A stretch of DNA of 64,000 bases from Naegleria gruberi (Eukaryota): the NCBI GenBank assembly GCA_000004985.1, contig GG738895.1; one strand, 5' to 3'. How positions within the stretch are numbered: position 1 is the stretch's first letter; every line of letters begins with the position of its first letter. The notes under the pieces are model-generated. The model worked only from the letters and a program-made list of their open reading frames with translations, had not been told where the DNA came from and searched no databases. Shown piece after piece: positions 10,923 through 58,818 of the stretch. The position numbers and the translations under genes are program-made.

Positions 10923-11252
10923 ATTTGCTTTTTCCAATAAAAAAACATATAAATTATAACTGTCCAACATTCAACGATGATTCAGCAGAATATTTAAGCT
11001 TATCCATTCACTTTCTATTTCGGTAATCACACGTGTTAATCAAAATAAAAAATTGATTCTCCTTCCCAGGATTTTATTCAAATTGATTGTTAATAAATAA
11101 TTAATTATTTTCAAATTGATTGATTGAAATTGTTTTTCTATTTAAATCTGCAATCCATCATAGATACATTGTTCTTTTAATAAACCATTCAAAAAAAAAT
11201 AGTCCTTCTACTTTTGATCATCCTCTACATTCGTCATAATCCTAATAGTGCC

Positions 11253-21413: not shown

Positions 21414-21581
21414 TTTTTTTTTGAAAATTGTTTTTTCATAGATCAAAGTTCGTTTTTTGTTTTTTACAATGAACAGTTTTTTGTTATAATTTTTAAATAG
21501 TGAATGGAAAAATTACAACAATTTAAGGAGCTAGCCCAAATGTTTACAACATAACACAATAATTTGAAAGTTTTTAAAAAA

Positions 21582-23018
21582 ATGAAAAAAGTTAAAAAAG
21601 TTAAAAAAGTTAAAAAATCGAAAACTGTCAAGTCATTGGCAGTTGAAGATCAAGTGGTCATACAGGCTGGCCTGTTAGCACCGTTATCATCATCGGATGT
21701 TTTGTTTTATCAAATATTACCATGCTTTCCATTAAAATTGTTATTCGAAACAGCAAGATTAGTTTGTAAAGAATGGAATTTATTTATTGTGGGAAATCAT
21801 AATGATGCTGGTCATGTAAAAGAATATTTTACAGGTCGGTACTCTCTGATCATTCCCCGTGAAAAAGAAGAATCTCTGATGACTTGTATTCGTGCTGGAT
21901 ATTTCCGAAATATAATTCAAAAATTACATTTCAAAGCTTTTGATTCATTTTGTAATCCTTCTATTGTTAGAAACTCAGGAGTGATTGAAATGGTTCCACA
22001 AATTAGTTCAACTTTATTGGATGATTCTTTTCCAAATGTTGAGGAAATTATTATTGGAACTGTCAATTCAGATTCTTGTATTATAAGAGAGGGATTTTGT
22101 AAAAACAAACTGGAAAAGTTGAAATTGTTGAAGATGACCATGCAAAGGGACGTGTCAATTTCTGATATATTTTCATGTGATTTTATGCAAAATTTGACAT
22201 GCTTGAATTTGGATAACTGCTTTATTGATTATACAACAGTTTTACAAATTAGTGAATGTCCACTGAAGAACTTGGAGAAATTGTGCTTAGGATATAATTC
22301 AATAACTCAATTGGGAGCTCTTACATTGTCCAAAAGCAAACATCTTTCAAAATTAACATATTTAGATTTGACTTATAATGACATTGGTGATGAAGGGCTT
22401 AGACATCTTTGTGAAAGTGAAACACTGTGTAATATTTCAAATCTATTATTGGAATTTAATGTAATTTCAGAATTGGAGCCTCTTTTACAAAGCTCCAATA
22501 TGAAAAATCTAGCACATTTGAATTTGTATAGATGTAGTTTGAATTTAAAAAGCTTTATGTCATTGATATCTTGCCCTAATTTACCAAAACTTTCAGAAAT
22601 TAGTCTATACCATGCAGGTTTAACAGGAATGCAAGAATTAGAAACTTCTCACATCATAGTATCCAACTCAATCAATCGACTTGATCTATCCTCTTGCAGT
22701 TTAGATGATTTGGGATTTAGGTGTTTGTTAAATTCCCTCAAATACGACTCCATTACTGAACTAAATCTTAGGTACAATGAAATTGGAAATGAAGGATTGT
22801 TGTGCCTAGCTGAATGTCCCTTCCTGACCAATTTGAGGATACTCGACCTATCTGGAAATCCAATAGATGATGAAGGTGCCCTCTACCTGGCACAAAACGT
22901 TCAATTTCCAAATATTAAGGAATTAATTTTAGAGTTTACCAAAATGACCAAAAATGGCAGTGAAAAATTTTCAGAAATTATTTTACAACGATTCCCAAAT
23001 GTTAATTTAACTATTTAA
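21582..23018 (+). CDS. F-box / leucine-rich-repeat protein (ribonuclease-inhibitor-type LRRs)
   Basis: Lys-rich N-terminus (KKVKKVKKVKK). F-box-like LAPLSSSDVLFYQILPCFPLKLLFETARLVCKEWNLFIV, followed by RNI-like LRRs (LDLTYNDIGDEGLRHL, LNLRYNEIGNEGLLCL, LDLSGNPIDDEGALYL). ATG at 21582. Confidence 0.6.
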   Translation: MKKVKKVKKVKKSKTVKSLAVEDQVVIQAGLLAPLSSSDVLFYQILPCFPLKLLFETARLVCKEWNLFIVGNHNDAGHVKEYFTGRYSLIIPREKEESLMTCIRAGYFRNIIQKLHFKAFDSFCNPSIVRNSGVIEMVPQISSTLLDDSFPNVEEIIIGTVNSDSCIIREGFCKNKLEKLKLLKMTMQRDVSISDIFSCDFMQNLTCLNLDNCFIDYTTVLQISECPLKNLEKLCLGYNSITQLGALTLSKSKHLSKLTYLDLTYNDIGDEGLRHLCESETLCNISNLLLEFNVISELEPLLQSSNMKNLAHLNLYRCSLNLKSFMSLISCPNLPKLSEISLYHAGLTGMQELETSHIIVSNSINRLDLSSCSLDDLGFRCLLNSLKYDSITELNLRYNEIGNEGLLCLAECPFLTNLRILDLSGNPIDDEGALYLAQNVQFPNIKELILEFTKMTKNGSEKFSEIILQRFPNVNLTI

Positions 23019-23099: not shown

Positions 23100-24207
23100 T
23101 CATTTTATTCTTGGTAATATTGTTAAAATTATATTTAAAAAGCCTTCAGTTTCAATATTGTTTGCATTGATATTGAGATCTGTTAACTGAGATAAGTGAC
23201 TCAATGATTTGGCACCTTCAGCACCAATATTATTTGTACTGATATTCAAAGTGGTCAATTTGCCTAGTTGACTGATATACATTGCTCCAGTGTTTCCAAT
23301 TTTAGAATAACTAATATTCAAGTCTGTTAATTGTGACATTTCGGATATAATTTTTGCCCCTTCATCTCCAATATAATTACAACTAATATTCAAATTATTT
23401 AAATTTTCCATTTGACTAATGAACTTGACTCCAACTACAGACAAATTTGGACAATTCGAAACATCAAGCTTTGTTAACTGTTTAATTTCACTAATTTTCT
23501 CTACAGATCTATCATTAAGATCAGAATATCTTACACGAAGTGATTTCAAAGTTTTTGATTGTGAAATAACATTCATCTGAAATGTTTCATCATTTTCTAA
23601 TGAAAATGCTGAATAACTCAAATCGAGTGAAATCAAATTTTTCATTCCAAATACAGAAAAAGATCCTGAATATCCAATACGATTGCTACATATATTCAAA
23701 CTAGTCAAGTTTGCCATTGTACTGATATGTTTAGCTCCTTCATCTCCAATTGAATTATAACTCAGATCAAGATTGGTCAATTGAGTCAAATTTTGAGAAA
23801 TTAATTGAGCTCCTTTCGTCCTAATTCTACAAACACTATTCCCAACAAGTTTCAATTCAACAATATTCCCAATAATTCCAGATTTAACAATATTTTCCAC
23901 AATTTTATCCTCAACCTCCAAATCAACAGAAAGTTTTGCCCTATTTTTGATTACTTCATGCCAATTACGAGAAATTAATAAACAACTTTGTATAATCATT
24001 GAAGAATCCAAAAAGGTAAGAATTTCATAACAAATATCATCAGGAAATACTTGATTTCGAAATTATTATATAAAAAATTACATAATTTTAGCAATTACAC
24101 TCACAATCAGGATTGGATTTCATTCCGATAGGTGCATCAATGGATTGTTTCATCTTTTTCCTATTAGAAAAATTATCATCATTTTCCCTTCTTTTTGTTT
24201 TTGACAT
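23100..24207 (-). CDS. F-box / RNI-type LRR protein, two exons (24105-24207 and 23100-24049; 55-nt intron 24050-24104 GTGAGT...AAG)
   Basis: The long ORF has no in-frame ATG before stop codons, yet it encodes a complete F-box (FPDDICYEILTFLDSSMIIQSCLLISRNWHEVI) only if extended upstream. An upstream mini-exon ATG(24207)...NPD with a GTGAGT donor restores the frame (phase 1). Downstream LRRs: LDLSYNSIGDEGAKHIS, LNISCNYIGDEGAKIIS, etc. The AAG acceptor is atypical, so the model is tentative. Confidence 0.45.
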
Positions 24208-25695: not shown

Positions 25696-27141
25696 ATGTT
25701 CTCGAGAACAAGGGTTATTTTCAAAATAATAATAATAATAATAATTAATGAATTGCTAATAGAGAATATTATATTTTCGGATGATGTTTGTTTTGAAATT
25801 ATTTCCATGATTGATGATTCGTGGTTTATTTTGAATAATTGTTCTTTAATTTCAAAACAATGGTTTAATGTGATCAAGGATCGTTCAAAACTTGTTATTC
25901 AATTTAAAAAAAAATTAACAGAAAAAAGAGTTGAATTATTAATGAAAAGTCAATTCATGAACAGTATTGTAAATGTTAAGTTTTCTTTTGGGTTGCTTAA
26001 CTCTTCAGATAAACTTAAATTCATAAGTGAAATGAAACATTTAACATCACTTGATATTGCTGACAATCAAATTGGTGATGAGGGATCTAAATTCATAAGT
26101 GGAATGAAACATTTAACATCACTTAATATAGATCGCAATCAAATTGGTGTAGAAGGAGCCAAACTCATAAGTGGAATGAAATCATTAATATCACTTAGTA
26201 TTGGTGATAATCAAATTGGTGTAGAAGGAGCCAAACTCATAAGTGGAATGAAACATTTAACATCACTTGATATAAATCGCAATCAAATTGGTGTAGAAGG
26301 AGCCAAATCAATAAGTAGAATGAAACAATTAACATCACTTAATATATATTACAATCAAATTGGTGCTGAGGGAGCCAAATCAATAAGTGGAATGAAACAA
26401 TTAACATCACTTGATATTGGTGGAAATCAAATTGGTGTAGAAGAATCCAAATACATAAGTGAAATGAAACAATTAACATCACTTGATATATATAACAATC
26501 AAATTGGTGTAGAAGGAGCCAAATCAATAAGTGGAATGAAACAATTAACATCACTTAATATTGGTTTCAATCGAATTGGTGTAGAAGGATCCAAACTCAT
26601 AAGTGAAATGAAACAATTAACATCACTTAATATTGGTTCCAATGAAATTGGTGTAGAAGGGTCCAAATTCATACCTGAAATGAAACATTTAACATCACTT
26701 AATATATATTACAATGAAATTGGTGATGAAGGATCCAAATACATAAGTGAAATGAAACAATTAACATCACTTGATATATATTACAATGAAATTGGTGTGG
26801 AAGGAGCCAAATACATAAGTGAAATGAAACAATTAACATCACTTGGTATTAGTGATAATCAAATTGGTGTAGAAGGAGCCAAATTCATAAGTGAAATGAA
26901 ATTATTAACATCACTTGATATTGCTGACAATCAAATTGGTGATGAGGGATCTAAATTCATAAGTGAAATGAAATCATTAACATCGCTTAATGTTAATTCC
27001 AATCAAATTGGTGATGAGGGAGCCAAACTTATAAGTGGAATGAAACAATTAACATCACTTAAAATATATTACAATCAAATTGGTGAAACTTTATTAATGT
27101 CTGTTATATCAATAACAGCTGAGACCAAATCTTTAGACTAA
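25696..27141 (+). CDS. F-box / RNI-type LRR protein composed of about 15 tandem 24-aa repeats (LTSLDIxxNQIGVEGAKxISxMKQ)
   Basis: ATG at 25696. N-terminal F-box-like FSDDVCFEIISMIDDSWFILNNCSLISKQWFNVI. The remainder is a perfectly periodic 24-aa LRR array; adjacent units are nearly identical at the nucleotide level. Confidence 0.65.
   Translation: MFSRTRVIFKIIIIIIINELLIENIIFSDDVCFEIISMIDDSWFILNNCSLISKQWFNVIKDRSKLVIQFKKKLTEKRVELLMKSQFMNSIVNVKFSFGLLNSSDKLKFISEMKHLTSLDIADNQIGDEGSKFISGMKHLTSLNIDRNQIGVEGAKLISGMKSLISLSIGDNQIGVEGAKLISGMKHLTSLDINRNQIGVEGAKSISRMKQLTSLNIYYNQIGAEGAKSISGMKQLTSLDIGGNQIGVEESKYISEMKQLTSLDIYNNQIGVEGAKSISGMKQLTSLNIGFNRIGVEGSKLISEMKQLTSLNIGSNEIGVEGSKFIPEMKHLTSLNIYYNEIGDEGSKYISEMKQLTSLDIYYNEIGVEGAKYISEMKQLTSLGISDNQIGVEGAKFISEMKLLTSLDIADNQIGDEGSKFISEMKSLTSLNVNSNQIGDEGAKLISGMKQLTSLKIYYNQIGETLLMSVISITAETKSLD
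26030..27090 (+). repeat. Tandem array of about 15 copies of a 72-bp unit (coding LRR repeats), near-identical at the DNA level
   Basis: Unit ...aatgaaacaattaacatcacttgatat(a/t)..aatcaaattggtgtagaaggagccaaa(t/c)(c/t)(a/c)ataagtg(g/a)... repeated head-to-tail. Only a few substitutions per unit. Confidence 0.75.
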
Positions 27142-28320: not shown

Positions 28321-29418
28321 TTATAGCATGGTTTTTAGAGTGGCAACAGCATAGAGGAATGGAAAGAGAAGGTCATCATCAGAGCACTCTTCTTTGGAGC
28401 TTAATTCAAAATATTGAACTTTGGTTGTGTGAATTGTTTTTTGTTGAGGCTCTGGCTCGACCATTTTTAGAAAATTGTAAATTTCAAGTCTTGTTACTTG
28501 ATGATCGAGATCTGATTTCAATCCGAGTAAGAGGAAACATCTATCATTGATATTGTAATCTGAAATATCTTTGACTGTCATTTCGTGATAAATTTCAATC
28601 ATTTCCTCAAATGATTTATGACTATTCAAATCAAAACAATACACAAAAACATTAGCTCTCGAATAAACAGATTTGAATAGCGATAGATATGTTTGATTTC
28701 CACATGTATCCCAAATCTTGAATGCAAATTCCGTCCCACTTCCATAAAGGTAATGCTTGTCAATTACTGGGAAAGTTATTGAGGGTGTATAATTTTCCGA
28801 AAATGGTAATTGATTAAAAGCTCTATCAATCAAAGTGGATTTACCACACCCTGATGACCCAACAAATATGTATTGGGCACATTGAGGCAATTCAACATCC
28901 TCATCTATTACAAATCTCTTCAGCAAGACATTTTTAACATTTTCATAACTTTCCATATCAGAAAACATGTACAACATTGGACTTTTTCTCCTCAAATCCT
29001 TCCACAGAACTTCAAATCTGGTCCAATACATTAAAAATCTCTTTGAAACTCGTTGCATTCTCCCTATACTTTCCATATCCAAAAATTGTAAAATGTGTAA
29101 AATTATTTCATGAGGAAAATTCGTCAACCAACCATCCTTCTCCTCACCCTGATTGAAATACTCATCATTGCCTCCATATCCTCTCCTAATTCCATTAAAA
29201 ATTCCTATCGGAAGCAATTCTACATCCGAAACAATAGTAGAAAGAATAGATTTCCTCTTGAATCCTCTTGGTAATTCCAACACGGGAAAATGTAGGGATT
29301 TTCCTGTAGAATAAAGTAAATTTTCAGATTGTTCACGGGAGGGGATTTTATTTTCATCTCTTGCTTGGTGATTCAGAGATGATGATGAGGGCGTCTCTGT
29401 TGATGTTTGTTGTCCCAT
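28321..29418 (-). CDS. F-box domain fused to a Ras/Rab-like small GTPase (paralog of the 2684-3775 gene)
   Basis: F-box FPHEIILHILQFLDMESIGRMQRVSKRF. GTPase P-loop GSSGCGKST, G3 WDTCGNQTY, G4 GLKSDL, G5 ELSSKE. N-terminus MGQQTS fits an N-myristoylation pattern. Shares the C-terminal LLFPF(V/L)Y motif with the paralog. ATG at 29418. Confidence 0.65.
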   Translation of the reverse strand: MGQQTSTETPSSSSLNHQARDENKIPSREQSENLLYSTGKSLHFPVLELPRGFKRKSILSTIVSDVELLPIGIFNGIRRGYGGNDEYFNQGEEKDGWLTNFPHEIILHILQFLDMESIGRMQRVSKRFLMYWTRFEVLWKDLRRKSPMLYMFSDMESYENVKNVLLKRFVIDEDVELPQCAQYIFVGSSGCGKSTLIDRAFNQLPFSENYTPSITFPVIDKHYLYGSGTEFAFKIWDTCGNQTYLSLFKSVYSRANVFVYCFDLNSHKSFEEMIEIYHEMTVKDISDYNINDRCFLLLGLKSDLDHQVTRLEIYNFLKMVEPEPQQKTIHTTKVQYFELSSKEECSDDDLLFPFLYAVATLKTML

Positions 29419-34577: not shown

Positions 34578-35448
34578 GTTTTAATTAGTTGTTCACGTAA
34601 TTTTCTATTACTAACATCGAGAAGTCATACCAGATGAGCAAGGCAATTTCCAGATTCAAATTGATTTCTTGATCACTGAATTGTCCTTCAAGGTAAGTTT
34701 GAAGAAAGCAAAGTGTGCAATTTCAAACAAATCTTAAAATATTTCTAGATGTATGGCTTTTGAAACCTGAATTATAATCGTTGTTTGTTTTTTTATGATA
34801 CAGTTGTACAGGAACCAAAACACAAATCGAAAAAAATGTTATATTTCAACTTTTAAATAATTCAGAATTGAAATAGATGAAGTTTCAATTTCGATTTGAT
34901 TAAGAAAATATCAAACCAAAATTTAGATCAAGCAATTCAACATGGCAAATGTTCAATAAATACGAGGTTGATCAACCGAATCAGTTTCTTCAAACAAAAC
35001 CTGAACCAACAAGATTCTGTCTTCGTTGCCTTCACTGTTCATACAGTCAAAGACTGTAGCGGGATTGTCGCCATATTCCTGGCAGGCTTCCCGTCTAATC
35101 TACCAATTGAAATATTACTTTGATTTGAACATCATTTCGTATGAAAAAATTATACAGACATTGATTAAGAAATAAAGTTAAAGTAAACTCACAATCAAAA
35201 CCCAATCTTTGCAATGAATCCTCGATCCATGGGAAGTCAGATTTTGTTCATTGGTGGGAGATTTGAAGAGGCAATTCAATATTGAACAATATTTTTAAGG
35301 AAAATGGGAGTGTCAAATCTTTGATTATTTTCTCGGTGGTTTTAAGATATGAAACTTTGAAAATTGCTATTTAGCTAGATTACATATCATTGCTCCAAGT
35401 GATGAAAAAAAGTAAAACTCAAATGTTGGAGATAGAGGCAAAATTAAT

Positions 35449-35519
35449 CTCGAGTGCCGGGAATTGAACCCGGGTCGCCAGAGTGACAGTCTGGAATGCT
35501 ACCACTATACCACACCCGA
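35449..35519 (-). tRNA. tRNA-Asp (anticodon GTC)
   Basis: Reverse complement reads TCGGGTGTGGTATAGTGGTAGCATTCCAGACTGTCACTCTGGCGACCCGGGTTCAATTCCCGGCACTCGAG. Acceptor pairs, anticodon loop CTGTCAC. T-run (AATTTTG) downstream on the minus strand. Confidence 0.85.
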
Positions 35520-35636
35520 TTACATTAGAAATCTTATGATCCCTTAACTCGCCTTAGTATAACGTCCTCACGGGCATTGGTTGATAAAGCATAACAATTA
35601 GATGTCAGGCAGAAAATTGTGGTTTATTCTAATGAG

Positions 35637-37322
35637 TTATTTCCAAGTCAATTTTTGATATTTAAGGGATAATTGTTCAATTCTCTGTTCTAACTGAGTG
35701 ATTTGTGACCAGTAGATGTATGGATTTGACTCTGGATTGTCAGTAATCCAATCTAACAAGCTTTGATACTCTAGCATACAAATGTCAAAAGCTGCTTTCT
35801 TATTTTCAGATTGTTCGATTAGAGATTCATGAGCTAACAACCATGCATATCTCAAATCTATATCAGAATTAGGTTCCTTAACATATGGTTCCATTCTTCT
35901 TATGGCCTCTTGTGCTTTTCCTGAGAGTCTTAGAGAATTGGCCATTACAATGATGCATTCCCTTAATTGGTATTCTGTCAAAACAAAGTTGACAGCCAAT
36001 AATTTTTCAATATTGAATAATGCAGTGCCATAATCTTCCAACAAGATGTGAACTTTTGCCTTATTGATCAAATTAACAATATTGTGTTGGGGAATTTTGC
36101 TGCCCTTTTCAGATAATTCTAAATATTTCTTCGATTCCTCAATGAATTCAACAAATTCGGAGCTCGAATTTCTAGTACTTTGAACAAGAGAAGCAGCATG
36201 CAACAACACACTACCTTTCAAAATAAAATAATCAGAAAAACAAAGTGGAAAGTTATCACTGTTCCTATTTCTCAGATTATCAAAAATTTCAGTAATTCTT
36301 TCGATATTCCTCTTGGTTTCCTCCATATTGTCGGGATACAAGTTATGGGTGCACTCTTTCAATATGAAACCTTTCGCATACACGTTGTTTTGGTCTAGCT
36401 CAATTGCCTTTTTGAGCAGAGTTTCGGCTTGTGTGTAATTACCTTCAACAATATCAATGACAGCCCTTACTAGTTCAATACATGAATTAATCTTGATATC
36501 CATTCCAGTCTCCAAATCAAACAGAGTATCATCCTTATTCAATAAACTCCATTCATTATGCTTTTGACAAATATTCTTCATGAGAATGGTCTCTTCCCTG
36601 CTTAATAGCTTCATTGCAAGTCCATAATTTGCAAAATAGAAAACTGATTCGAACAATTCTTTTTCCAAAGTCTCATCAACTGCATTATCAATTTCTTTCT
36701 TAAATTCAATAATTTCTAAATTCAATGAAACATATTCAGTCAAATATTTCTTTAACAAGTGACAAGAATAGAGATTGGAAGCATATTCTTTCAGAAGTGG
36801 ATTAGTTTTAAACGCATTAAATACATAATCAAACAACCATTCTTCATTATCTTTCAAAATATCACTTTTCAATTGTTTTTTAATCGTATCAATCAGGAAA
36901 CTTGGAATTCCATAAAAAATTCCCTCTTTTGTTTCCTTATTTTTAATTAATAATGATAAAAATTCATCTGTTGCATTGTTAGTTTGTTTTCCTTTCACAA
37001 TATTTTCAATTTCCAATTTGATTTGTTTTTTGTAATCTAATAAAGACTTGGTTGACTTGAACGGATTTTCATTTTGATTGAATTCTTGTCCAATTAAACC
37101 TCCATTAATTTGCTTGTCTTTGATATTTTCTAAACCACCCGAACAAATACGAAACCTATTTTCCAACTCCAACTTATTCGAATCTTCATTTCTATGAAAA
37201 AGTGCAATGTGAAATTGCTCATTGTAACATCCCAGTTTTGCCAATGCTACAAAATAGTTAACTCGTGTTGATTGCACTTTAAATAAGTTTCGTCTCTGAA
37301 GGAGCGTTCTTCTAATGAACAT
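35637..37322 (-). CDS. Hypothetical alpha-helical repeat (TPR-like) protein, 561 aa
   Basis: Intronless ORF with ATG at 37322. Helical-repeat composition (e.g. AETLLKKAIELDQNNVYAKGFIL). No specific family recognised. Confidence 0.45.
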   Translation of the reverse strand: MFIRRTLLQRRNLFKVQSTRVNYFVALAKLGCYNEQFHIALFHRNEDSNKLELENRFRICSGGLENIKDKQINGGLIGQEFNQNENPFKSTKSLLDYKKQIKLEIENIVKGKQTNNATDEFLSLLIKNKETKEGIFYGIPSFLIDTIKKQLKSDILKDNEEWLFDYVFNAFKTNPLLKEYASNLYSCHLLKKYLTEYVSLNLEIIEFKKEIDNAVDETLEKELFESVFYFANYGLAMKLLSREETILMKNICQKHNEWSLLNKDDTLFDLETGMDIKINSCIELVRAVIDIVEGNYTQAETLLKKAIELDQNNVYAKGFILKECTHNLYPDNMEETKRNIERITEIFDNLRNRNSDNFPLCFSDYFILKGSVLLHAASLVQSTRNSSSEFVEFIEESKKYLELSEKGSKIPQHNIVNLINKAKVHILLEDYGTALFNIEKLLAVNFVLTEYQLRECIIVMANSLRLSGKAQEAIRRMEPYVKEPNSDIDLRYAWLLAHESLIEQSENKKAAFDICMLEYQSLLDWITDNPESNPYIYWSQITQLEQRIEQLSLKYQKLTWK

Positions 37323-37732
37323 TTTTTTTTCTGTTTATTTTTCAATTCTCTAGTTCCACACAACTTCCAAACTTTCTTTACAAAAAATCAATCCACTATT
37401 AACCAACTAAATTTTTGTTAAAAATGGAAATTAGACCTATGCAGGCGTCTGAAGATTAACTTCACACATGATTTTAAGCAATTTGGAAACAACTTTTGTT
37501 TTAAAGTGAAACAATACAAGAATAAATCTTAAAACAAATCTTTTGATAATTTGGAAGCTGAAGATTAAGCCAACTTTGAAATCTTTTCAAATAACATCAA
37601 GTCTTTATTCAATAATTACCTGAGCCTTAAAATTTTCATCTCACCATCTATCAAACCAAACCCTAATTTCCATAATAGTCCAATCAACATGCCAAATTTC
37701 ATTTAAAAAAAAATACCCTGACAACCATTTTA

Positions 37733-39370
37733 ATGTCTTTGCTATCATCATATGAAACATCACCAAACATCACTACAGGTCAATCAATTTGTGATAAAAG
37801 ATTGCTAGAATTAGGTCAACTGAGCAGAGAAGGATACAATGCCACAATTACTAACAATATTTGTCCAGATAGTATTTTCACTCCGATATTTGCAAGTGGA
37901 ATTTTGATATTTTATATTGTTCTGGTTTGTTTTGGGGTGTTTGGAGTTTATTGGAAGAGAAATAGTGGACATGTCAAGGCACGTCATGCGACATTTATGA
38001 TTTTGACAATTGTTGCTAGTTTTATGTGTGTTTTGTTGACGTGTTTGAGATATATTGTGGGGAGGAAGGTGATGCCTTGTTTTTTGTATAGTATCTCTAT
38101 ATTTATTACGCCACCTGCCATTTGTCTGCCAACTGTTTTGAGATATGTCAGAACTTTCTTCTTGTATCGATTGAATTTGAAGAAAGCAGCAAATGTGAGA
38201 GCTAGCAAAGAGTTTTATATTCAAAAGAATACTGAACTAGAGAAGGAAGAAGTCAAAAGTCCAACTCGAGATGTCCAAGTTGATTTGACATTTAACAATG
38301 AAGAAAATAATAAGGAAAATAATGAATTGAATAAGGCTCAATCAGAACAAGAATTGAATATTACATCGAATAGTTCTGTGGAAAAGAGTGATATTGATTC
38401 GAATTCGGAAGGTTTAGACCAAGCTTACTTGGACTATTCTGAATCGGCCATGTTTTCCAAAAGTTTCAAAATTCTTAACTTTATTTTGAGTAACAAGTTT
38501 ATTGTACTGGTTTATATTCTCGCATTTGGATTTCATTTGGCTGTTTGGGCTATCTTTGGAGGTGTGGATGAGATTTTATGGAACACTTCAGGGAAACGAA
38601 TCTTCCTGTGGAGTGTGAGCATGTTTCAGTTTGATACTGGATGTGTAACAACTACGAATGGAGTAATTTTGATGGTTAGTGAGGCAGCTTTCTACATCAT
38701 TCTAGAGTTTGTCTTTTTTATTTTATTGTTTTTTGTGGATAGAGATACGTGGTCAATTAAGATTGAAGCAATTGTGATGATTATCATTCAGATTATATTG
38801 GCAGCTTCATTTCTTATAAGTGGACAAATTGAAGTGATTAGATTTTTCACAGATTACATAGTTCCATATGGATTTGCTGCATTATTGTATCCAATTTTGG
38901 AAATTTTAATTTCAGTCATTCTTCCAGTAATTTATGCCATCAGACAAGATAGAAAATCAATCACTCATGAAGGAAATCAAATGGAAATCCTCCTCAGAAA
39001 TAGAGAGACATTCTGGCTCATATTGGACTATGCAAGACGAAGTTATTGCCCCGAGAATATTCTTGCATATAAGGATATTGAGAATTTCAAAAAAATTTCA
39101 AAAAAGAATAGAAAGCAAGTTGCCCTCAAGATTATCAACACCTACTTGGTGCATGACTCTCCTCTGGAGCTTAACATTCCAAATGCCTCGACGAGATATC
39201 ATGAAATTAATACGTTTCTTACAGGACTAGTTGATGACAATGTGCCTTTAGATCTCTTTGATGATATCAAACTAGCTTGTCTGACAAATATGACAGACAT
39301 CTTTGAACGATTGAAATCTAGTAATTTGGAATTCAAACAAAAAGTTGAATCATTGAACAAAGGACAATAA
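37733..39370 (+). CDS. Seven-transmembrane protein with a C-terminal RGS (regulator of G-protein signalling) domain
   Basis: About 7 hydrophobic helices between aa 50 and 400. The C-terminal approximately 120 aa (FWLILDYARRSYCPENILAYKDIENFKKIS...ALKIINTYLVHDSPLELNIP...TRYHEINTFL...DLFDDIKLACLTNMTDIFERLKSS) follows the RGS helical pattern (FxxFLxxExxxENLxFWxxxxxFK...A..IYxxYL...SxxEVNI...). ATG at 37733. Confidence 0.6.
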   Translation: MSLLSSYETSPNITTGQSICDKRLLELGQLSREGYNATITNNICPDSIFTPIFASGILIFYIVLVCFGVFGVYWKRNSGHVKARHATFMILTIVASFMCVLLTCLRYIVGRKVMPCFLYSISIFITPPAICLPTVLRYVRTFFLYRLNLKKAANVRASKEFYIQKNTELEKEEVKSPTRDVQVDLTFNNEENNKENNELNKAQSEQELNITSNSSVEKSDIDSNSEGLDQAYLDYSESAMFSKSFKILNFILSNKFIVLVYILAFGFHLAVWAIFGGVDEILWNTSGKRIFLWSVSMFQFDTGCVTTTNGVILMVSEAAFYIILEFVFFILLFFVDRDTWSIKIEAIVMIIIQIILAASFLISGQIEVIRFFTDYIVPYGFAALLYPILEILISVILPVIYAIRQDRKSITHEGNQMEILLRNRETFWLILDYARRSYCPENILAYKDIENFKKISKKNRKQVALKIINTYLVHDSPLELNIPNASTRYHEINTFLTGLVDDNVPLDLFDDIKLACLTNMTDIFERLKSSNLEFKQKVESLNKGQ

Positions 39371-40032
39371 TCCTTTTGTTTTAAAATTAGTTGAATAATC
39401 TTTCGATATGTCATTGAAACTTACATGGATATTAATTGATAATGCGATGAATTTCCCGATCTCAATAGATTATTCAAACAATAATTTTAAAAAGAAAAGT
39501 TGGTTATTATTTACATTACACAATCTTGAGATATCTATAAACAACTGTCACGGTTGAGAAAATACCCATTCCAATAACGGCAATTTCAAATGGAGTTAAA
39601 ATTTTCTTAATATTTCTCAAATTATTGCAAGCAATCAAAAAGAGAGCTCTAAAGCTTCCATCATCAACTAGTTTAGGCTTTCTCCTTTCCTTTCCCCATT
39701 GGGAGTTTGTTGTTTCCACTGGCAAATTGTCTGCCTTCTTTTTAAAGAAAAATGTTCGTTTCTGTGGTTGTTGAATTGTGTTGTGTCTTGTGGTTGCAGC
39801 CAACTTGGAACTGTTTCTACTCTTCAGAGGACTATGTAATACTCCATGTATGAATGATGGGTGGGTAAATTTATGGGTGATTAAGGAAGAAGTAACAGCA
39901 GTGCACATTGTGTTTGGTCGTTTGATCATTTTTTTGTGTTTGACTTGTGTGGTTTTTTACTAAGTTTCGGCGAATCATGCACAAACATCCTTATTTGGGC
40001 TGGAAACAAGTTGAAAAGTGGCATAATAATAT

Positions 40033-41665: not shown

Positions 41666-43233
41666 TTATTTTCTGTTTCGCAAAATTCTTGAGGCTTTTG
41701 GCATTTCTCTAAGATCTAATTGATTATTGATTGTATCTTGGAAAGAGGAATACTTTTCAAGAATTAAAGAAATGAATTTGGTAATGTTTGATTCATCAGA
41801 TTCAGAACACTTTTGTGCAATATCAATAATTGTAACAGCTGTATGCTTCTTACATTTCTCTGACATGTCTATGAAATCCAAGAATATTTGGAGAATATCT
41901 GACTTGACAGTAGCACTCAAATGAGAGTCATTATAGAGAGCATATAATGCCTTCAAGTTTTGTTGTTCCTTAGAAAGGAGTTCAATCATGCATGATTCAT
42001 TAATAAATGTTAAAATACAACTGACTGCTCTAGTAATCACTGGTAAAGTTCTATTGGATTCTGAGGCTTGCAATCCTTCATAAACAATTGATTCAATTAT
42101 TGCAGACAAAAAGTAAATATCAGCACCTTCGTTTGAATTAAGTGAATAATCTGGATTACCAGTCAAATAACGATAACATCTCATATATGGATGTTTGTAA
42201 AGATTATTGGCAGTAATTCTAAGATCTGGATCTGGTTCTACCATCTTTCTAATAAGATCCTTCAATGAAGAAAGTTTGATACGTTCAAACATTCCAGGAA
42301 TTTTGTCTCTTTCTCTCAAAACAGCTCTATAGAAAGCTTCATGTTGTTGTTGGCAAGTTAATTCAAAAACACACAAGCCCATACTATAAATATCACAACT
42401 GTAGGCATATGGTCTTTGAAGAGCAATTTCTGGAGCAACATAGAGTGGTGTTCCGCAAATTGTGTATGTTACAGCTCCCTTACTATTGAGCATTTTGGCA
42501 AGACCAAAATCACATAATCTCAATGTATCATCCTCTCCGAGAAGCATATTAGATGGCTATATTGTTATTATTATTATTGGGTGTGTAAATTATCATATTT
42601 ACATAATAGCAAACATACCTTAATATCTCTGTGAATAATACCTTCTTCATGACAATACATCAAAGCACTACAAAGTTGAGTGTACCACGAAAGAACTCTC
42701 CAAACATTAATATTAACATGTTGATCCTTTTCAATAATATCTCCAATAGTACCTTTTTGGCAGTATTCTGTTACTACACCAACACAACTCTTATCCATTT
42801 GATCTTTGAGAGGAAATTCCTCGATGAAAAGCATAATATTTGGATGTTTCAAGTTTTTAAGTATCTTAATTTCTCTATCGATAGCTTCTGCGGCTTCTCT
42901 ATCTGTAGTTTTTGGAAGCTCTAACACTTTCAATGCAAGATTATTGCTTCCCTTTTTAACAAGATAGACTTCACCATAACTACCCTTTCCGATTAAGTTC
43001 AAAATTTGATAGCCATGATATACACTATCTATCGATAACATTACACCCAAGTCCACAAATGGATCTCCAACCTTGGGACTTCTTTGTGGCTTTGTTATTG
43101 GTTGTTTTTGATTTGCTGTTGTTGTTGTTGTTGGAGCGCTATTATTTTGTGGACGTTCATAGGCATCATCATCTTCGTCTTCACGCAAGAGAAATTTAGT
43201 GATTGAATTTTCTGAACGGGAGGCATTACCCAT
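41666..43233 (-). CDS. Ser/Thr protein kinase (NEK/CAMK-like catalytic domain) with a long C-terminal regulatory region, two exons (42619-43233 and 41666-42556; 62-nt intron GTATGT...ATATAG)
   Basis: N-terminus MGNASRS. Kinase motifs GKGSYGEVYLVKK, ALKVL, HRDIK|PSNMLL (the intron splits HRDIK / PSN), DFGLAK, GTPLYVAPE. Intron boundaries are anchored on the ORF-track coordinates (my hand count in this stretch differs by 1 nt). Confidence 0.75.
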
Positions 43234-51049: not shown

Positions 51050-52699
51050 ATGTTAAAAAGTGGATTGTTACTTTTCACTTGTTTGTTTGTGGTTATCACT
51101 AGAGTTGAGCAAGTGTTAGCATCGACCAATGTTCAAATTGCCCACTCCCTGAACATTCCTTCAGTTTGGCAACAATTACCACTTTCCGATAATTTATCTG
51201 AAAGGGTTGTTTTAACATTTGCATTAAAAAATAGAAATGTTGAATGGTTGCAAAGAATATTCGAAAATGTGAATAATCCAATGCATAGAGATTATGAAAA
51301 ATACCTCACCATGAAACAAGTTTCCGATATAACTTCTCCTCAACAAACTAATCTCGTCATTGAATACTTGAACTCAATTCCTGACTGTTCTATATTGAAC
51401 ATTTCCAAACACGGCAATTTAATAACAGTGAAAATAAGTTTACAATCTGTAAATTTACATTTAAATGCCAAAATGAAACCATTCGTCCACAAGGAAACCA
51501 AAGAAATAATTTTCCGCTCCCTGAATGGTTTCTCTCTTCCATTGGAAATTAGTAAGATTGTGAAAACTGTTTTTGGAATTCATCATTTTCCACATGGAAA
51601 TGCAAAAAAGAAATTCACTGCTGCTCAATCTTCACATCCAATAACTCCGAAGGAAATTTGGAATAGATACAATGTCAGTTTACCAACAAGTATCAATGGA
51701 CAAAGTTCTCAGGCGATTGCTTCTCTTTTGGGACAGTTCTATAATTCAAATGATTTGAGTCAATTCCAACACATGTACAACTTGACACAAATGCAACCAA
51801 TTGTAAATGGAGATAATAATAATGGAAAACCAGGAATGGAAGCTTCTTTAGATATTCAATATATTATGGGAATTGCACAGGGAATTAATACTACAATTAA
51901 TAGTATTGCATCCAATAATATTGAAGATCCATTTGTGCAGTGGATTTCAGTAATTCAATCACAAGGAGATTCAAGTGCATGGATTCATTCAATTTCGTAT
52001 GGAGCTGTCGAGAAGGATATTCCAGCAGATGTAAAGGAAACTGTCGATCAGGAATTCCAAAAAATTGGATCAACAGGAAGAACTATATTTGTTAGTTCTG
52101 GAGATAATGGAGTCAGATGCAGTGATTATGGTGATAGATTTGAACCAGAATGGCCAACTAGTAGTCCTTTTGTTGTCTCTGTTGGAGCTACAGAATTTAA
52201 AATTAAGGGAGGAAAAATCTCAGAAATTGGAGCTGATTTCACGGGAGGTGGATTTTCAGATGCCTACAAAAGACCAAGTTATCAAGATGAAGCAGTTACT
52301 AATTATTTGAATCAAGAATCATTCCCAGATAGATCGTATTTCAATCAGAATGGTAGAATGTTTCCAGATATGACCTTAATTGGAAAAGGTTTTCAAGTAA
52401 TTCTTTCAGGAAAGGTTCAATCAGTTGATGGAACAAGTGCCAGTACACCAAGTGTAGCTGCTCTATTTTCTCTTCTCAATAATATTCGTTTCCTACAAAA
52501 TAAGAAACCAATCGGATTCCTTAATCCATGGCTCTATCAAATAGCTCCAAAAACACCAAATGCTTTCTATGATATCACAGAGGGTTATAATTCATTCGAT
52601 CCATGTCCTGGATTCTTTGCAACCAAATCATTTGATCCAGTGAGTGGTATTGGCGTACCAAACTTTGCAATTCTAAAGGATTTAATCTTGACAAAATAG
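51050..52699 (+). CDS. Sedolisin / tripeptidyl-peptidase I-like serine-carboxyl peptidase (family S53) with N-terminal propeptide and signal peptide
   Basis: Signal peptide MLKSGLLLFTCLFVVITRVEQVLA. Pro-kumamolisin-like activation domain, then catalytic domain with SGDNG and the catalytic Ser motif GTSASTPSVAALFSLLN. Intronless 549 aa. ATG at 51050. Confidence 0.75.
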   Translation: MLKSGLLLFTCLFVVITRVEQVLASTNVQIAHSLNIPSVWQQLPLSDNLSERVVLTFALKNRNVEWLQRIFENVNNPMHRDYEKYLTMKQVSDITSPQQTNLVIEYLNSIPDCSILNISKHGNLITVKISLQSVNLHLNAKMKPFVHKETKEIIFRSLNGFSLPLEISKIVKTVFGIHHFPHGNAKKKFTAAQSSHPITPKEIWNRYNVSLPTSINGQSSQAIASLLGQFYNSNDLSQFQHMYNLTQMQPIVNGDNNNGKPGMEASLDIQYIMGIAQGINTTINSIASNNIEDPFVQWISVIQSQGDSSAWIHSISYGAVEKDIPADVKETVDQEFQKIGSTGRTIFVSSGDNGVRCSDYGDRFEPEWPTSSPFVVSVGATEFKIKGGKISEIGADFTGGGFSDAYKRPSYQDEAVTNYLNQESFPDRSYFNQNGRMFPDMTLIGKGFQVILSGKVQSVDGTSASTPSVAALFSLLNNIRFLQNKKPIGFLNPWLYQIAPKTPNAFYDITEGYNSFDPCPGFFATKSFDPVSGIGVPNFAILKDLILTK

Positions 52700-55902: not shown

Positions 55903-58818
55903 ATGGGAGCAAAAGTTAAAATTCAAGTAAAAAGCTGTAGAAATTTACCAATCATGGATAGGAGTAGTGGATTAACAGATGCCTATGTTGTTGTTAAATG
56001 TGGTAGTGAATATCAATTTAAAACACCTGTCTGTAGGAAAACTTTAAATCCATCATGGAATATTGACGCTTTTAGATTTGAAGTGCCGAATAATGATTAT
56101 TTACAGGAAAATGTAATTGAATTTAAAATTATTGATTATGATGTAGTTACACAGGATGATGTAATCGGAACAGTTATTGTTGATACTAATTTATTAGCCT
56201 TGAATCAGGTAAATCAATTTAGTGGTTGGTTGCCAATTTTTGACTCATTTAGAGGAGTTTGTGGAGAATTGAATATTCATATCAAGATTGATTTCATTCA
56301 AAATATTAATCCATACCGAGACAGTTGTCCAGAAGTTCAATTCTTTTCATGTCCAAGTATTTATCCACTCATGGAATATACTCAATATTCTATAAGAATT
56401 AGTGATTTTGTTGAGGAATTATTAATCGATGACGATCCAGAATATGATTCGTTCAAGGATTTATTGAGAAGCAGTCGAAGTTCAAACGATCAGAGACAAT
56501 TACTTCTCTATCAATTATCTGGTAGATTAAAAAGAAGAATGGGAAAGAAAGTCCAAGAAGCTAATGACAACATTATATTTGGATATGAGGAATGTTTTGA
56601 TTTGGAAAATGATATTATTATTGTGAGAGGTTTGGGAACTAGATGCAAATTATCAACAAAAAGACTAGTTGAAGAAATTCCACAAATAGCTCTACCAGGC
56701 ACACCTCCAATGAATATCATTCCACTCACTGATTTTGCATCTTCGCCACTGGCTGCTGCTTCTGTTGATTCTCCAACCAATACATTCAATGGACAAAGTG
56801 ATGTGAAATTAATTACCATCAAGACACTTGACTCACAACATATCAAATACATGGCAGGTATTGTTCAAGCAAGATCTGTCAAATTACTCTCACCAGATAT
56901 GAAACTAAGTGATATGCAAAAAGAAAGAGACGGATGGTGGAATGAATTAAGAGCAGAAATCAAGGAAAATGCCAGATCACTCGGTTGTACTCATGTGATT
57001 GGCTATTCTGAACAATATGAATTATTTTCCAAGGGATCAGTTTGTATCCTTTGTGCAGAAGGAACAGCAGCTGTGCTCAATCCTCAATTTGAGAATTACA
57101 ATATTAGAAACTTGTCTGATGATCAAGAAGAAAAGGAAGTTGACAAGCATATTGAAGATAGATACTGTAGAATGTTCCACCTTCCTAAGAATAGTCCATT
57201 CTTTAGAGCTGGTGCTTCTGTGTGTCCATTACGTGGTGATGGTTATGTTCCAAATATGTTTATTTCAACTTGTGAAATTCCAAACATTATAGAACAAAGA
57301 TTTTCATTACAACAAAAGCACTTTATTGAAGCCAGAATTTGTAGAACCAAGAAGAAGAAATTTGGAGAAAGCAATGCTTATAGTATTAGTAATGTTCTAC
57401 CTTTCGTGGTTCACGATCTTCACAAGCAATTTGTGCACAAAATGAATTTGTGTCACTGTAATGCTGCTTTCAGTGTTTCCTATAATCTTGCTATTAATGA
57501 CAATTTCATTATTTTAACATGTAGAGGAACTGGTCTGTGCATTGATGCCCTCCCAAGAAATGAAAAGATGAGCTTTATTCTCCCAGATGAGAAAGACAAT
57601 ACTGACCAAATAAGACTCTTGACAGATTATAGTGATTACTATGTAAGTTGAATATTATACCAGTGTATCTAATTTTCAAAGTCTATATTATTGGACAATT
57701 CTATTGAAGAAAGACATGAAGAAGCCGAAACTGAAGAAAATGTAGATTCTCCAAGAGGAAAGGATTTGAATGATAGTATATCTTCTGGTTCTGAAAATGA
57801 GGAACTTATTGAAAGTGGAAGTGCTGGATTTGCTCTTGAAATGGCAGATGAACAGGATGAAGATTTCATCAACTCACTTGTGGAACCTCTTTTACCTTGT
57901 GGAATTCATTTTACAACATTGAAACATATTTCAGAACTTGCATCCAAATCAATGTCTCATCTTCAGTACATCTTCTTAGAAAAGTCATTCCCTCTCAAGA
58001 CTGATAATGTTAAAAAGCAACAACAGTACATTGCTTCACTTTTCAGAGAGTTGTACATTACCCTGTCTTTCAAATTATTACTGCTTTCCAATGAAGAATT
58101 GAATCAAAGTGTTTATGTGATGGGTATTTCTGAAAAACTCAGATTGGAAGATTCAAACGATTTGATTATTACCTTGCAAGCTATGCCAGCTTTGGTCACT
58201 TCACACCAACTCAAAGCCAATCCACAACTTGAACAAATGAAGGCCAATCTACCACAACTCCTTCCACCACTACCACACCCACAGTCCATTACCACTAATA
58301 TTGATATTGGAAGTCCAAGAAAGAGAGACACTTCACCACTCAATAGAGGCACTTCACAAAATCTCACTTCAAGCTTTGAAACTCCTGAAATGCTTTTCAA
58401 TATGGATATTGACCAAAAATCAGAAACACCTTCGGTAATACCTGAAGAACGTGATATCGATAAGGAATGGATGGAAGAGCAGTATGTTGTCATTACACCA
58501 ATGTACTTTATTCCTGGAGCCAAAATTGAAAAGGTAGTCGGTGCTATTACACAACACCTTGTTAGAGAGTCCACCAATGTAGTCCAATTCAGTTCCTTCC
58601 AACAGGAATGCATCATGGAAGCAACTTCCATCATTAGAGCACACACTAAGGCCATCGACTGCAATGCCCTCATTAATTATTCTGTCAAATTCCATGCTGT
58701 GTTAGATAATCCATCTAAGAAGCAAGCTTACATCATGCTGACAATTTCTGGTGATGCTTGTAAGGTTTCCTACTCTTCCTCCTCAGGCCTTCAAAGATTA
58801 ACAGAATTATCCAAATAA
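55903..58818 (+). CDS. C2-domain protein (C2CD5-like architecture), two exons (55903-57642 and 57682-58818; 39-nt intron GTAAGT...CAAAG)
   Basis: N-terminal C2 domain (KVKIQVKSCRNLPIMDRSSGLTDAYVVVKCG...TLNPSWN...FEV...IEFKIIDYDV..DDVIGTV). Exon 1 ends ...DYY with a GTAAGT donor; exon 2 begins in frame SILLDNSIEERHEE. The C-terminal region (VITPMYFIPGAKIEKVVGAITQHLV...; also GCTHVIGYSEQ in exon 1) resembles YbjQ/DUF74-like modules. Confidence 0.6.

What the first reader, a model, noticed from the sequence alone, without database searches (positions are those of the whole stretch)
37733..39370. 7TM receptor-like protein with an intrinsic C-terminal RGS domain
A 7TM-RGS architecture is known from plant AtRGS1-type proteins and a few protists, but is rare overall. 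It implies a receptor-regulated GAP rather than a classical GPCR-GEF and G-protein signalling mode. A clear instance here helps define how this organism wires heterotrimeric G-protein signalling.
Basis: partly seen in the sequence, partly recalled or inferred. Interest (0 to 1): 0.5.

Follow-up and report, generated by a model that had tools for sequence, protein, structure and literature searches.

The report
Naegleria seven-helix receptor-RGS fusion protein
This is a real, intact Naegleria gruberi gene for a seven-helix membrane protein with a built-in switch-off (RGS) domain for G proteins, one more member of a large family already described in this genus, so it is sound but ordinary.

Summary

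The most likely function is a plasma-membrane, receptor-like GTPase-activating protein for Naegleria G-alpha subunits, working like plant AtRGS1.

This is not new in kind. N. fowleri has 28 published 7TM-RGS proteins, and three of four tested RGS domains showed GAP activity (Bosch et al. 2022). N. gruberi has 229 RGS proteins. A link between RGS-fused receptors and class C was proposed in 2011.

This protein belongs to a short-N-terminus subfamily with at least 11 N. gruberi paralogues. The subfamily also occurs in Willaertia, Pharyngomonas and Anaeramoeba, and none of its members has been studied biochemically. Ligand, G-alpha partner and regulation remain inferred.

The parts
37733..39370 (+). 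Complete single-exon coding sequence, 545 aa plus stop (NAEGRDRAFT_72159 / XP_002672759.1)
   Evidence: ORF list. It is 100% identical over its full length to the NCBI and UniProt entry. An allele on metagenome contig L001 is 99.1% identical in the CDS against 93% in the upstream intergenic DNA.
37733..37876 (+). Short predicted extracellular N-terminus (aa 1-48). It carries two N-x-S/T sequons (N12, N36) and two conserved cysteines (C20 in 'ICD', C44 in 'ICPD').
   Evidence: Sequence and sequon scan. C20 is present in 40 of 49 and C44 in 41 of 58 aligned family members. The motif ICDxxLFxLG..SRE..ICPD appears in the alignment consensus. AF2 pLDDT is 75-79 for aa 21-50. The extracellular placement is inferred from the positive-inside rule.
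37877..38146 (+). Transmembrane helices 1-3 (aa 49-138). Includes the conserved ICL1 (KRNSGHxKAR), the motif LRFIxGRKxFPC with C116 at the top of TM3, and R137/R140 at the cytoplasmic end of TM3.
   Evidence: Hydropathy and AF2 helices 49-74, 86-109 and 116-173. In the 77-member family alignment C116 is present in 67/68, R137 in 65/73 and R140 in 62/73.
38147..38491 (+). Long predicted cytoplasmic loop between TM3 and TM4 (ICL2, aa 139-253). It is rich in N, S, E and K, predicted disordered, and variable in length and sequence among paralogues.
   Evidence: Hydrophilic trough. AF2 pLDDT is below 50 for aa 172-236. Composition: 19 S/T in 115 residues. The region is unalignable among paralogues. 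Six of the 7 amino-acid differences from the natural allele fall here.
38492..38941 (+). Transmembrane helices 4-7 (aa 254-403). Includes ECL2 with invariant C304, the DRDTWxIKxE motif at the ICL3/TM6 boundary, and P398-x-x-Y401 near the cytoplasmic end of TM7.
38978..39364 (+). Cytoplasmic RGS domain (aa 416-544). The G-alpha-contact residues are E441, N442, N481, D522 and R526.

Best explanation
The gene encodes a plasma-membrane 7TM-RGS protein. It has a short, probably glycosylated and disulfide-bonded extracellular N-terminus, a seven-helix bundle with a class-C-like GPCR fold, a long disordered cytoplasmic loop between TM3 and TM4, and an RGS box directly after TM7 on the cytoplasmic face.

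The most likely mechanism is as follows. The membrane-tethered RGS box binds the switch regions of one or more of Naegleria's many G-alpha subunits in the transition state and accelerates GTP hydrolysis, holding them in the GDP (off) state. An extracellular cue sensed by the 7TM bundle, and/or phosphorylation of the cytoplasmic loop or tail followed by internalisation, changes the access of the RGS box to G-alpha and so sets the level of active G protein. This is the AtRGS1-type receptor-GAP mode.

Shown here: the ORF, seven helices, the GPCR-like fold, a bona fide RGS fold with conserved G-alpha-contact residues, family-wide conservation, and a substitution pattern between two alleles that fits purifying selection.

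Shown by others for paralogues in a sister species: GAP activity and transition-state-selective G-alpha binding.

Inferred: plasma-membrane location, N-out topology, GAP activity of this protein, its G-alpha partner, any ligand, and the way it is regulated.
For: (1) Intact 545-aa ORF identical to the annotated N. gruberi protein.

(2) Seven helices by hydropathy and by AF2.

(3) Charge distribution fits an N-out, C-in topology. K+R counts are 4 of 12 residues in ICL1, 7 in the first 23 residues of ICL2, and 3 in the first 6 residues after TM7. They are 2 of 33 in ECL2 and 1 of 16 in ECL3. Sequons sit at N12, N36 and N284 on the predicted outside.

(5) The bundle is conserved in ways expected of a working receptor rather than a greasy anchor: C116 (top of TM3, 67/68) and C304 (ECL2, 77/77), basic residues at the cytoplasmic end of TM3, E345 at the start of TM6 (70/76), and P398-x-x-Y in TM7.

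(6) The RGS domain passes Pfam's threshold, has an RGS4-like fold, and keeps E441, N442, N481, D522 and R526, which map to RGS4 E87, N88, N128, D163 and R167. These are nearly invariant across 64-66 family members, except position 442, which is Ser in most. From established knowledge of the RGS4-Gi-alpha1-AlF4 structure (1AGR, Tesmer et al. 1997), these are the G-alpha-contact residues, and N128 is the key transition-state-stabilising residue.

(7) Of 77 long relatives of the 7TM module alone, 58 also carry an RGS domain, so the fusion is ancestral to the family.

(8) A natural allele differs by 7 synonymous and 7 non-synonymous codons. Six of the non-synonymous changes are in the disordered loop. 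Outside the loop the count is 5 synonymous to 1 conservative M-to-V change.

(9) Same-genus biochemistry: RGS domains of Nf 7TM RGS2-4 are GAPs for Nf G-alpha2/3/5/7, binding is selective for the GDP-AlF4 state, and the switch-1 G-to-S 'RGS-insensitive' mutation abolishes it (PMC9283941).

(10) N. gruberi has 30 to 44 G-alpha genes as possible substrates (PMC8584482; PMC5784254).
Against: Nothing about this particular protein has been tested. No GAP assay, localisation, ligand or expression data were found.

The biochemically characterised N. fowleri proteins are a different subtype. They have more than 1,200 residues and carry EGF, lectin or GPS ectodomains, so transferring their activity to this protein is an inference.

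The AF2 model is of moderate confidence (pLDDT 71.3, pTM 0.55, built from only 14 sequences). The orientation of the RGS box relative to the bundle cannot be trusted.

RGS4 position N88 is Ser in most family members, although it is Asn in this protein.

ECL1 carries the conserved basic pair R111-K112 on the predicted outside, which is mildly at odds with the positive-inside rule.

No G-alpha, G-beta or other RGS gene lies in the 64-kb window, so genomic context gives no partner.
Confidence: 0.75

Rival explanations
1. It is a dual-function receptor. The class-C-like bundle is a genuine GPCR that activates a slow-exchanging Naegleria G-alpha (GEF activity). The RGS box in the same chain sharpens and terminates that signal, acting as a kinetic scaffold, much as class C GPR158 recruits RGS7-Gbeta5 in trans.
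For: The fold is closest to G-protein-coupling class C receptors, including GPR158, which was solved with RGS7-Gbeta5. Conserved basic residues at the TM3 cytoplasmic end, E345 at the TM6 start and PxxY in TM7 resemble GPCR activation microswitches (the comparison with microswitches is from my own knowledge). Naegleria has slow-exchanging G-alpha subunits that also engage 7TM-RGS proteins.
Against: No 7TM-RGS protein has been shown to have GEF activity in the papers read here. ICL2, a main G-protein-coupling loop in class C receptors (my own knowledge), is here a 115-residue disordered, non-conserved insert. The query and its family profiles have no detectable sequence match to any solved GPCR.
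Confidence: 0.12
2. It is a constitutive, ligand-independent membrane-anchored GAP. The seven helices serve only to place the RGS box at a membrane and perhaps to allow trafficking, with no sensing function.
For: The N-terminus is only about 48 residues and has no recognisable ligand-binding domain. This contrasts with the EGF, lectin and GPS ectodomains of Nf 7TM RGS1-4. Whether any Naegleria 7TM-RGS responds to an extracellular cue is explicitly unknown (PMC9283941 discussion).
Against: A pure anchor would not need the family-wide conservation seen at extracellular and core positions: C116 and C304 are near-invariant, as are the GRKxFPC motif, the TM6/TM7 polar residues D374 and E390, and P398. 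Class C receptors without a Venus-flytrap domain (GPR156, GPRC5D) are among the best fold matches.
Confidence: 0.15
3. The RGS domain is a non-catalytic G-alpha-binding or scaffolding module, as in GRKs, axin or sorting nexins. On this reading the protein is an effector or adaptor rather than a GAP.
Against: The equivalents of RGS4 E87, N88, N128, D163 and R167 are all present and are conserved family-wide, apart from the N88 position, which is Ser in most members. The best sequence and fold matches are catalytic RGS proteins such as RGS10, RGS2, RGS16, RGS4, RGS1 and RGS3. Three of the four Naegleria 7TM-RGS domains tested so far are active GAPs; the fourth could not be assayed.
Confidence: 0.06

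Closest known systems
Naegleria fowleri 7TM RGS proteins (28 genes; Nf 7TM RGS1-4 studied; Bosch, Jeck & Siderovski 2022, PMC9283941)
   Same: Same genus and same architecture: a predicted seven-helix bundle followed by a C-terminal RGS box. The RGS box is canonical. For RGS2-4, GAP activity on Naegleria G-alpha subunits has been demonstrated.
   Different: The four characterised proteins have more than 1,200 residues (RGS boxes at aa 1036-1215, 1262-1419 and 1539-1678 for RGS1-3) and large EGF, lectin or GPS ectodomains. This protein has 545 aa, a 48-residue N-terminus and no such domains.
Arabidopsis AtRGS1 and plant RGS1 orthologues
   Same: Both have 7 TM helices plus a C-terminal RGS box, are about 460-550 aa long, and have a short N-terminus. 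Both bundles are class-C-like. Some plant RGS1 orthologues carry a precomputed Pfam 7tm_3 hit, and the AtRGS1 model is reported to resemble mGlu1 4OR2 (bioRxiv 10.1101/2025.09.10.672744). The expected mode of action is the same: a GAP that restrains self-activating G-alpha.
   Different: No significant direct sequence similarity between the two 7TM modules was found (hhalign probability 0.7%, E 0.08). Plants have one copy, while N. gruberi has at least 11 of this subfamily. The long disordered TM3-TM4 loop is specific to the Naegleria family. AtRGS1's regulatory phosphorylated tail after the RGS box (my own knowledge) has no counterpart here, since only about 20 residues follow the last core helix.
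Class C GPCR transmembrane domains (Pfam 7tm_3), especially those lacking a Venus-flytrap domain (GPR158, GPR156, GPRC5D)
   Different: The query itself has no 7tm_3 hit. It has no Venus-flytrap or cysteine-rich ectodomain. The RGS box is part of the same chain. Nothing tested here shows dimerisation or GEF activity.
Canonical RGS-box proteins (RGS4, RGS10, RGS16, RGS2)
   Same: Same nine-helix RGS fold (rmsd 1.9-2.1 A) and the same G-alpha-contact residues.
   Different: Sequence identity is only about 19-22%. Those proteins are small and soluble or lipid-anchored, not fused to a 7TM bundle.
Trichomonas vaginalis 7TM-RGS proteins (Urano, Fu & Jones 2013, PMC3865004)
   Same: A protist 7TM-RGS that enhances GTP hydrolysis by self-activating G-alpha subunits. 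A relative of the query's 7TM module occurs in Anaeramoeba flamelloides (P0151). From my own knowledge, not checked with the taxonomy tool, Anaeramoeba is a metamonad like Trichomonas.
   Different: No Trichomonas sequence was compared here, so homology of the 7TM modules is untested.

Membership tests
7TM-RGS architecture class (AtRGS1-type receptor-GAPs) | Seven transmembrane helices N-terminal to the RGS box | tested here: met
   There are seven hydropathy peaks and seven AF2 helices. About 250 residues superpose on solved GPCR bundles.
7TM-RGS architecture class (AtRGS1-type receptor-GAPs) | C-terminal RGS domain on the cytoplasmic side | tested here: met
7TM-RGS architecture class (AtRGS1-type receptor-GAPs) | RGS box retains the residues needed for G-alpha binding and GAP activity | tested here: met
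   E441, N442, N481, D522 and R526 map to RGS4 E87, N88, N128, D163 and R167. All but position 442 are conserved across the family.
7TM-RGS architecture class (AtRGS1-type receptor-GAPs) | Measured GAP activity on a cognate, typically self-activating, G-alpha | not testable with these tools
   This has been shown only for N. fowleri paralogues of another subtype.
Plant RGS1 family (orthology or direct homology of the 7TM module) | Significant sequence similarity of the 7TM region to plant RGS1 | tested here: inconclusive
   hhalign of the family 7TM profile A5 against a 12-species plant RGS1 alignment A6 gave probability 0.7%, E 0.08, over 40 columns. The plant alignment has low diversity (Neff below 2). 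Both groups have separate weak-to-moderate links to Pfam 7tm_3.
Naegleria 7TM RGS family (Bosch et al. 2022) | Encoded by a Naegleria genome, with a predicted 7TM bundle plus a C-terminal RGS domain | tested here: met
   The protein is identical to the N. gruberi entry. Architecture as in the rows above. Paralogues and orthologues occur in N. gruberi and N. lovaniensis.
Naegleria 7TM RGS family (Bosch et al. 2022) | Adhesion-GPCR-like ectodomain (EGF, lectin, GPS), as in the characterised Nf 7TM RGS1-4 | tested here: not met
   No Pfam domain other than RGS is found, and the N-terminus is 48 aa. This feature defines a subtype, not the whole family, since only 'a number of' the 28 proteins have it.
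Class C GPCRs (Pfam 7tm_3) | Match to the 7tm_3 profile | tested here: not met
   The query has no hit at E<=1. Family profiles find no GPCR among PDB sequences. The link is only indirect: P0155 hits 7tm_3 at E=2.2e-10 (41.1 bits, cut-off 33.5), and hhalign of A2 against P0155 gives probability 97.9%, E 5.8e-13. Sub-threshold hits occur in P0134 and P0149.
Class C GPCRs (Pfam 7tm_3) | Class C-type transmembrane fold | tested here: met
Class C GPCRs (Pfam 7tm_3) | Large extracellular Venus-flytrap and/or cysteine-rich domain | tested here: not met
   The N-terminus is 48 residues with no domain hit. Some accepted class C members also lack this domain, for example GPR158 (PMC8611064 abstract).
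Class C GPCRs (Pfam 7tm_3) | G-protein activation (GEF) and obligate dimerisation | not testable with these tools

The most novel reading that the evidence does not exclude
This short-N-terminus subfamily, found in Heterolobosea and at least one other excavate-type amoeba (Anaeramoeba), could be a little-changed descendant of the ancestral eukaryotic RGS-fused receptor from which class C GPCRs were proposed to derive. Its conserved TM3/TM6/TM7 residues could mean that the bundle is a conformationally active sensor. That sensor might switch its own RGS box or even also act as an exchange factor. If so, it would be a compact single-chain model for how GAP-type and GEF-type receptors diverged.
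Probability: 0.12. Interest if true: 0.5.

Novelty: new member of a known kind. Interest (0 to 1): 0.2.

Why it matters
The finding adds a cleanly delimited example to a known class, and little more. It confirms that N. gruberi, like N. fowleri, uses 7TM-RGS receptor-GAPs.

It also shows that one compact subfamily pairs a class-C-like bundle with a canonical RGS box and a hypervariable cytoplasmic loop. That subfamily has at least 11 N. gruberi paralogues, and its 7TM module has 231 cluster representatives in 1.84 billion proteins.

At 545 aa, with no introns and no large ectodomain, this protein would be an easier object for expression, structure determination or ligand screening than the N. 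fowleri proteins of more than 1,200 residues studied so far.

It does not change the current picture of G-protein signalling in Naegleria or in eukaryotes.

Tried and rejected
(1) NCBIfam scan of the protein found nothing. This is expected, because that library covers prokaryotes.

(2) Direct sequence evidence for a GPCR family was sought. The query had no Pfam 7TM hit. The 7TM-only profiles A2 and A5 found no GPCR among PDB sequences. The class C link therefore rests on fold and on one bridging homologue.

(3) Foldseek against AFDB50, which might have returned AtRGS1 and protist models directly, was not available.

(4) Word-indexed homologue searches were insensitive for this family, giving 14 and 9 hits. 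The exhaustive HMMER search was needed.

(5) Direct homology to plant RGS1 was tested. I recalled the AtRGS1 sequence from memory and validated it through the database: 93% identity to the Camelina cluster representative and 100% to an A. thaliana fragment. I then aligned 12 plant orthologues and compared profiles. There was no significant 7TM match. Only the RGS boxes align, with weak support (P0155 against the plant profile: probability 64%, E 6.5e-5).

(6) Genomic context gave no lead. No G-alpha, G-beta, RGS or GPCR gene was found among the 30 other window ORFs scanned with Pfam (29 of the 33 other ORFs of at least 180 aa, plus one 137-aa ORF). Eukaryotic neighbours are not expected to be functionally linked in any case.

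(7) The antisense ORFs inside the gene (137 aa and 74 aa on the minus strand) were judged to be by-products of the long sense ORF and were not pursued.

(8) Anantharaman et al. 2011 and Bradford et al. 2013 could not be read. Their content is cited only through papers that quote them.

(9) An exact-sequence lookup of the window protein in the contig collection failed. The allele P0015 was found instead.

Full report
**What is there.** Window 37733-39370 (+) is a single 545-codon ORF in DNA of about 33% G+C. Its translation is 100% identical, end to end, to the Naegleria gruberi entry XP_002672759.1 / EFC40015.1 / UniProt D2VT35 / NAEGRDRAFT_72159. That entry is named only 'predicted protein' or 'uncharacterized protein' and carries a precomputed Pfam RGS hit. 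The window is therefore N. gruberi nuclear DNA, and the finding's coordinates are exactly the annotated single-exon gene.

**RGS domain.**
- Pfam PF00615 matches aa 418-521 at E=4.5e-8 (33.9 bits against a cut-off of 23.9).
- A profile of this region from 12 family members finds RGS10, RGS2, RGS16 and RGS3 among solved structures, best 5e-7.
I then aligned it to the family by hhalign and MAFFT.
- RGS4 E87, N88, N128, D163 and R167 correspond to E441, N442, N481, D522 and R526.
- In a 77-sequence family alignment these positions are E 64/64, N 62/66, D 54/65 and R 58/66. Position 442 is more often Ser.
- From established knowledge of the 1AGR structure (Tesmer et al. 1997), these residues contact the G-alpha switch regions, and N128 is the key residue for stabilising the transition state. 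The box therefore looks catalytically competent. This is inference from conservation, not a measurement.

**Seven helices and topology.**
- Kyte-Doolittle hydropathy gives seven peaks.
- AlphaFold2, run with the 14-sequence alignment A1, gives helices at 49-74, 86-109, 116-173, 254-286, 308-333, 337-363 and 380-411, followed by the RGS helices 416-544. Mean pLDDT is 71.3 and pTM 0.55. The TM blocks mostly score 72-93. The N-terminal 18 residues and aa 172-236 score below 50.
- Basic residues cluster in ICL1 (4 of 12), the start of the TM3-TM4 loop (7 of 23) and just after TM7 (3 of 6).
- The N-terminus and ECL2 carry N-x-S/T sequons (N12, N36, N284) and conserved cysteines.
- This fits an N-out, C-in topology with the RGS box in the cytoplasm.
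- The one mild oddity is a conserved R111-K112 pair in the short predicted ECL1.

**What kind of seven-helix bundle.**
- At sequence level the query and its family profiles match no GPCR.
- An exhaustive HMMER search with a 7TM-only profile (alignment A2) over 1.84 billion cluster representatives found 231 relatives at E<=1e-3, of which 150 are at E<=1e-10.
- Of 77 long relatives, 58 also have an RGS domain and two hit Pfam 7tm_3.
- One of those two is P0155 from Pharyngomonas kirbyi. It passes the 7tm_3 gathering threshold (E=2.2e-10, 41.1 bits against 33.5, aa 32-273) and has an RGS box at aa 325-439. The other was not identified.
- The query-subfamily profile aligns to the same part of P0155, aa 17-272, with hhalign probability 97.9% and E 5.8e-13.
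- Two further members have sub-threshold but full-length 7tm_3 matches.
- The bundle is therefore a divergent class-C-like 7TM.
- Family-wide conservation points to a structured, probably conformationally active receptor core rather than a passive anchor. The conserved positions are C116 at the top of TM3 (67/68) and C304 in ECL2 (77/77), which sit where the classic GPCR TM3-ECL2 disulfide lies. Also conserved are R137/R140 at the cytoplasmic end of TM3, E345 at the cytoplasmic start of TM6 (70/76) and P398-x-x-Y401 in TM7. The disulfide and microswitch analogies are my inference.

**The loop.**
- Between TM3 and TM4 lies a 115-residue segment rich in N, S, E and K, with 19 S/T.
- It is predicted disordered and differs in length and sequence in every paralogue.
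- A natural allele on an environmental contig with the same upstream neighbour (L001) is 99.1% identical in the coding region, against 93% in the upstream intergenic DNA.
- Of its 7 amino-acid changes, 6 lie in this loop. Outside the loop there are 5 synonymous changes and one conservative M-to-V change.
- The numbers are small. They fit purifying selection on the bundle and the RGS box and relaxed constraint on the loop.
- The loop is a plausible site for phosphorylation or adaptor binding. This is inferred.

**Distribution.**
- Named members of this 7TM family come from N. gruberi, N. lovaniensis, Willaertia magna, Pharyngomonas kirbyi and Anaeramoeba flamelloides.
- N. gruberi has at least 11 paralogues: P0001, P0005-7, P0011, P0013, P0016, P0020, P0031, P0073 and P0131.
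- The rest are unnamed metagenome or transcriptome sequences.
- No G-alpha, G-beta, RGS or GPCR gene is among the other ORFs of the window that were scanned.

**How it compares with what is known.**
- The architecture is established. AtRGS1 in plants and 7TM-RGS proteins in Trichomonas restrain self-activating G-alpha subunits (PMC3865004).
- Many 'bikonts' and some opisthokonts have 7TM-RGS proteins, and N. gruberi has 229 RGS proteins (PMC3971589).
- Most directly, Bosch, Jeck and Siderovski (2022, PMC9283941) reported 28 7TM-RGS genes in N. fowleri. They showed that the RGS boxes of Nf 7TM RGS2-4 bind G-alpha in the transition state and accelerate GTP hydrolysis on Nf G-alpha2/3/5/7. This activity is sensitive to the switch-1 G-to-S mutation.
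- Those four proteins have more than 1,200 residues and EGF, lectin or GPS ectodomains. The present 545-aa protein is a different, uncharacterised subtype.
- The class-C-like nature of RGS-fused receptors is also not new. Anantharaman et al. 2011, as quoted in PMC4608122, noted a distant relationship between RGS-fused 7TMs and metabotropic-glutamate-like receptors.
- The AtRGS1 7TM model is reported to resemble mGlu1 4OR2.
- Here, several plant RGS1 orthologues carry precomputed 7tm_3 hits.
- A direct profile-profile comparison of the Naegleria-family bundle with plant RGS1 was not significant (probability 0.7%). Common descent of the two 7TM modules is plausible through class C but was not demonstrated here.

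**Verdict.** Two claims are not carried by the evidence. The architecture is not rare in this organism. One such gene does not show 'GAP instead of GEF' wiring, because Naegleria has both fast- and slow-exchanging G-alpha subunits. The best explanation is a membrane receptor-like GAP for Naegleria G-alpha (confidence about 0.75). GAP activity, partner, ligand and regulation are all still inferred for this protein. It is a new member of a known kind, and interest is low (0.2).

Noticed in passing
window 2684-3775 (+) and 28321-29418 (-): Two paralogous ORFs (363 and 365 aa) combine an N-terminal F-box with a C-terminal Ras/Roc-like small GTPase domain. This is an unusual domain pairing.
   Followed up: no
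window 21564-23018 (+), 23100-24011 (-), 25696-27141 (+): Three ORFs rich in LRR_6-type (ribonuclease-inhibitor-like) leucine-rich repeats lie within 6 kb of each other. This looks like a local cluster of LRR genes.
   Followed up: no
window 41666-43233 (-): A protein kinase domain is split across two ORFs: N-lobe at 42574-43233 and C-lobe at 41666-42547. The gap contains a short GT...AG stretch of about 45-50 nt that looks like an intron.
   Followed up: partly
window 11214-13235 (+): A 673-aa ORF has a strong Peptidase_S49 match (SppA-type signal-peptide peptidase, E=5.6e-65). From my own knowledge this family is mostly bacterial and plastid-associated.
   Followed up: no
window 55903-57651 (+) and 57691-58818 (+): Adjacent ORFs carry C2 plus YbjQ-like domains, resembling C2CD5. 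They are probably one gene interrupted by an intron or a frameshift.
   Followed up: no
window 51050-52699 (+): A 549-aa ORF combines a pro-kumamolisin activation domain with a subtilase-type domain, as in sedolisin/S53-like peptidases.
   Followed up: no
L001 1-4220 (ENA metagenome ERZ929261 contig), corresponding to window ~35440-39650: An environmental metagenome contig carries the same gene pair (a TPR-like gene on the minus strand followed by the 7TM-RGS gene). Coding identity is 99.1% and intergenic identity 93%, so it comes from a closely related N. gruberi-like strain in that sample.
   Followed up: partly
window 35637-37322 (-): The upstream neighbour is a 561-aa ORF with only a faint TPR_2 match and no other recognisable domain. 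It is conserved in synteny on L001.
   Followed up: no
P0119 (unnamed relative of the 7TM module, 736 aa): One family member has the usual TM4-7 region and RGS box followed by eleven DUF4116 repeats (E=3.7e-97). This C-terminal extension was not seen in the other members scanned.
   Followed up: no
window 1612-2388 (+), 13766-14560 (-), 60083-60682 (-): These are partial-domain ORFs: two DEAD-box helicase N-terminal halves and the C-terminal 40% of a cytochrome P450. They are evidently exons of intron-containing genes.
   Followed up: no
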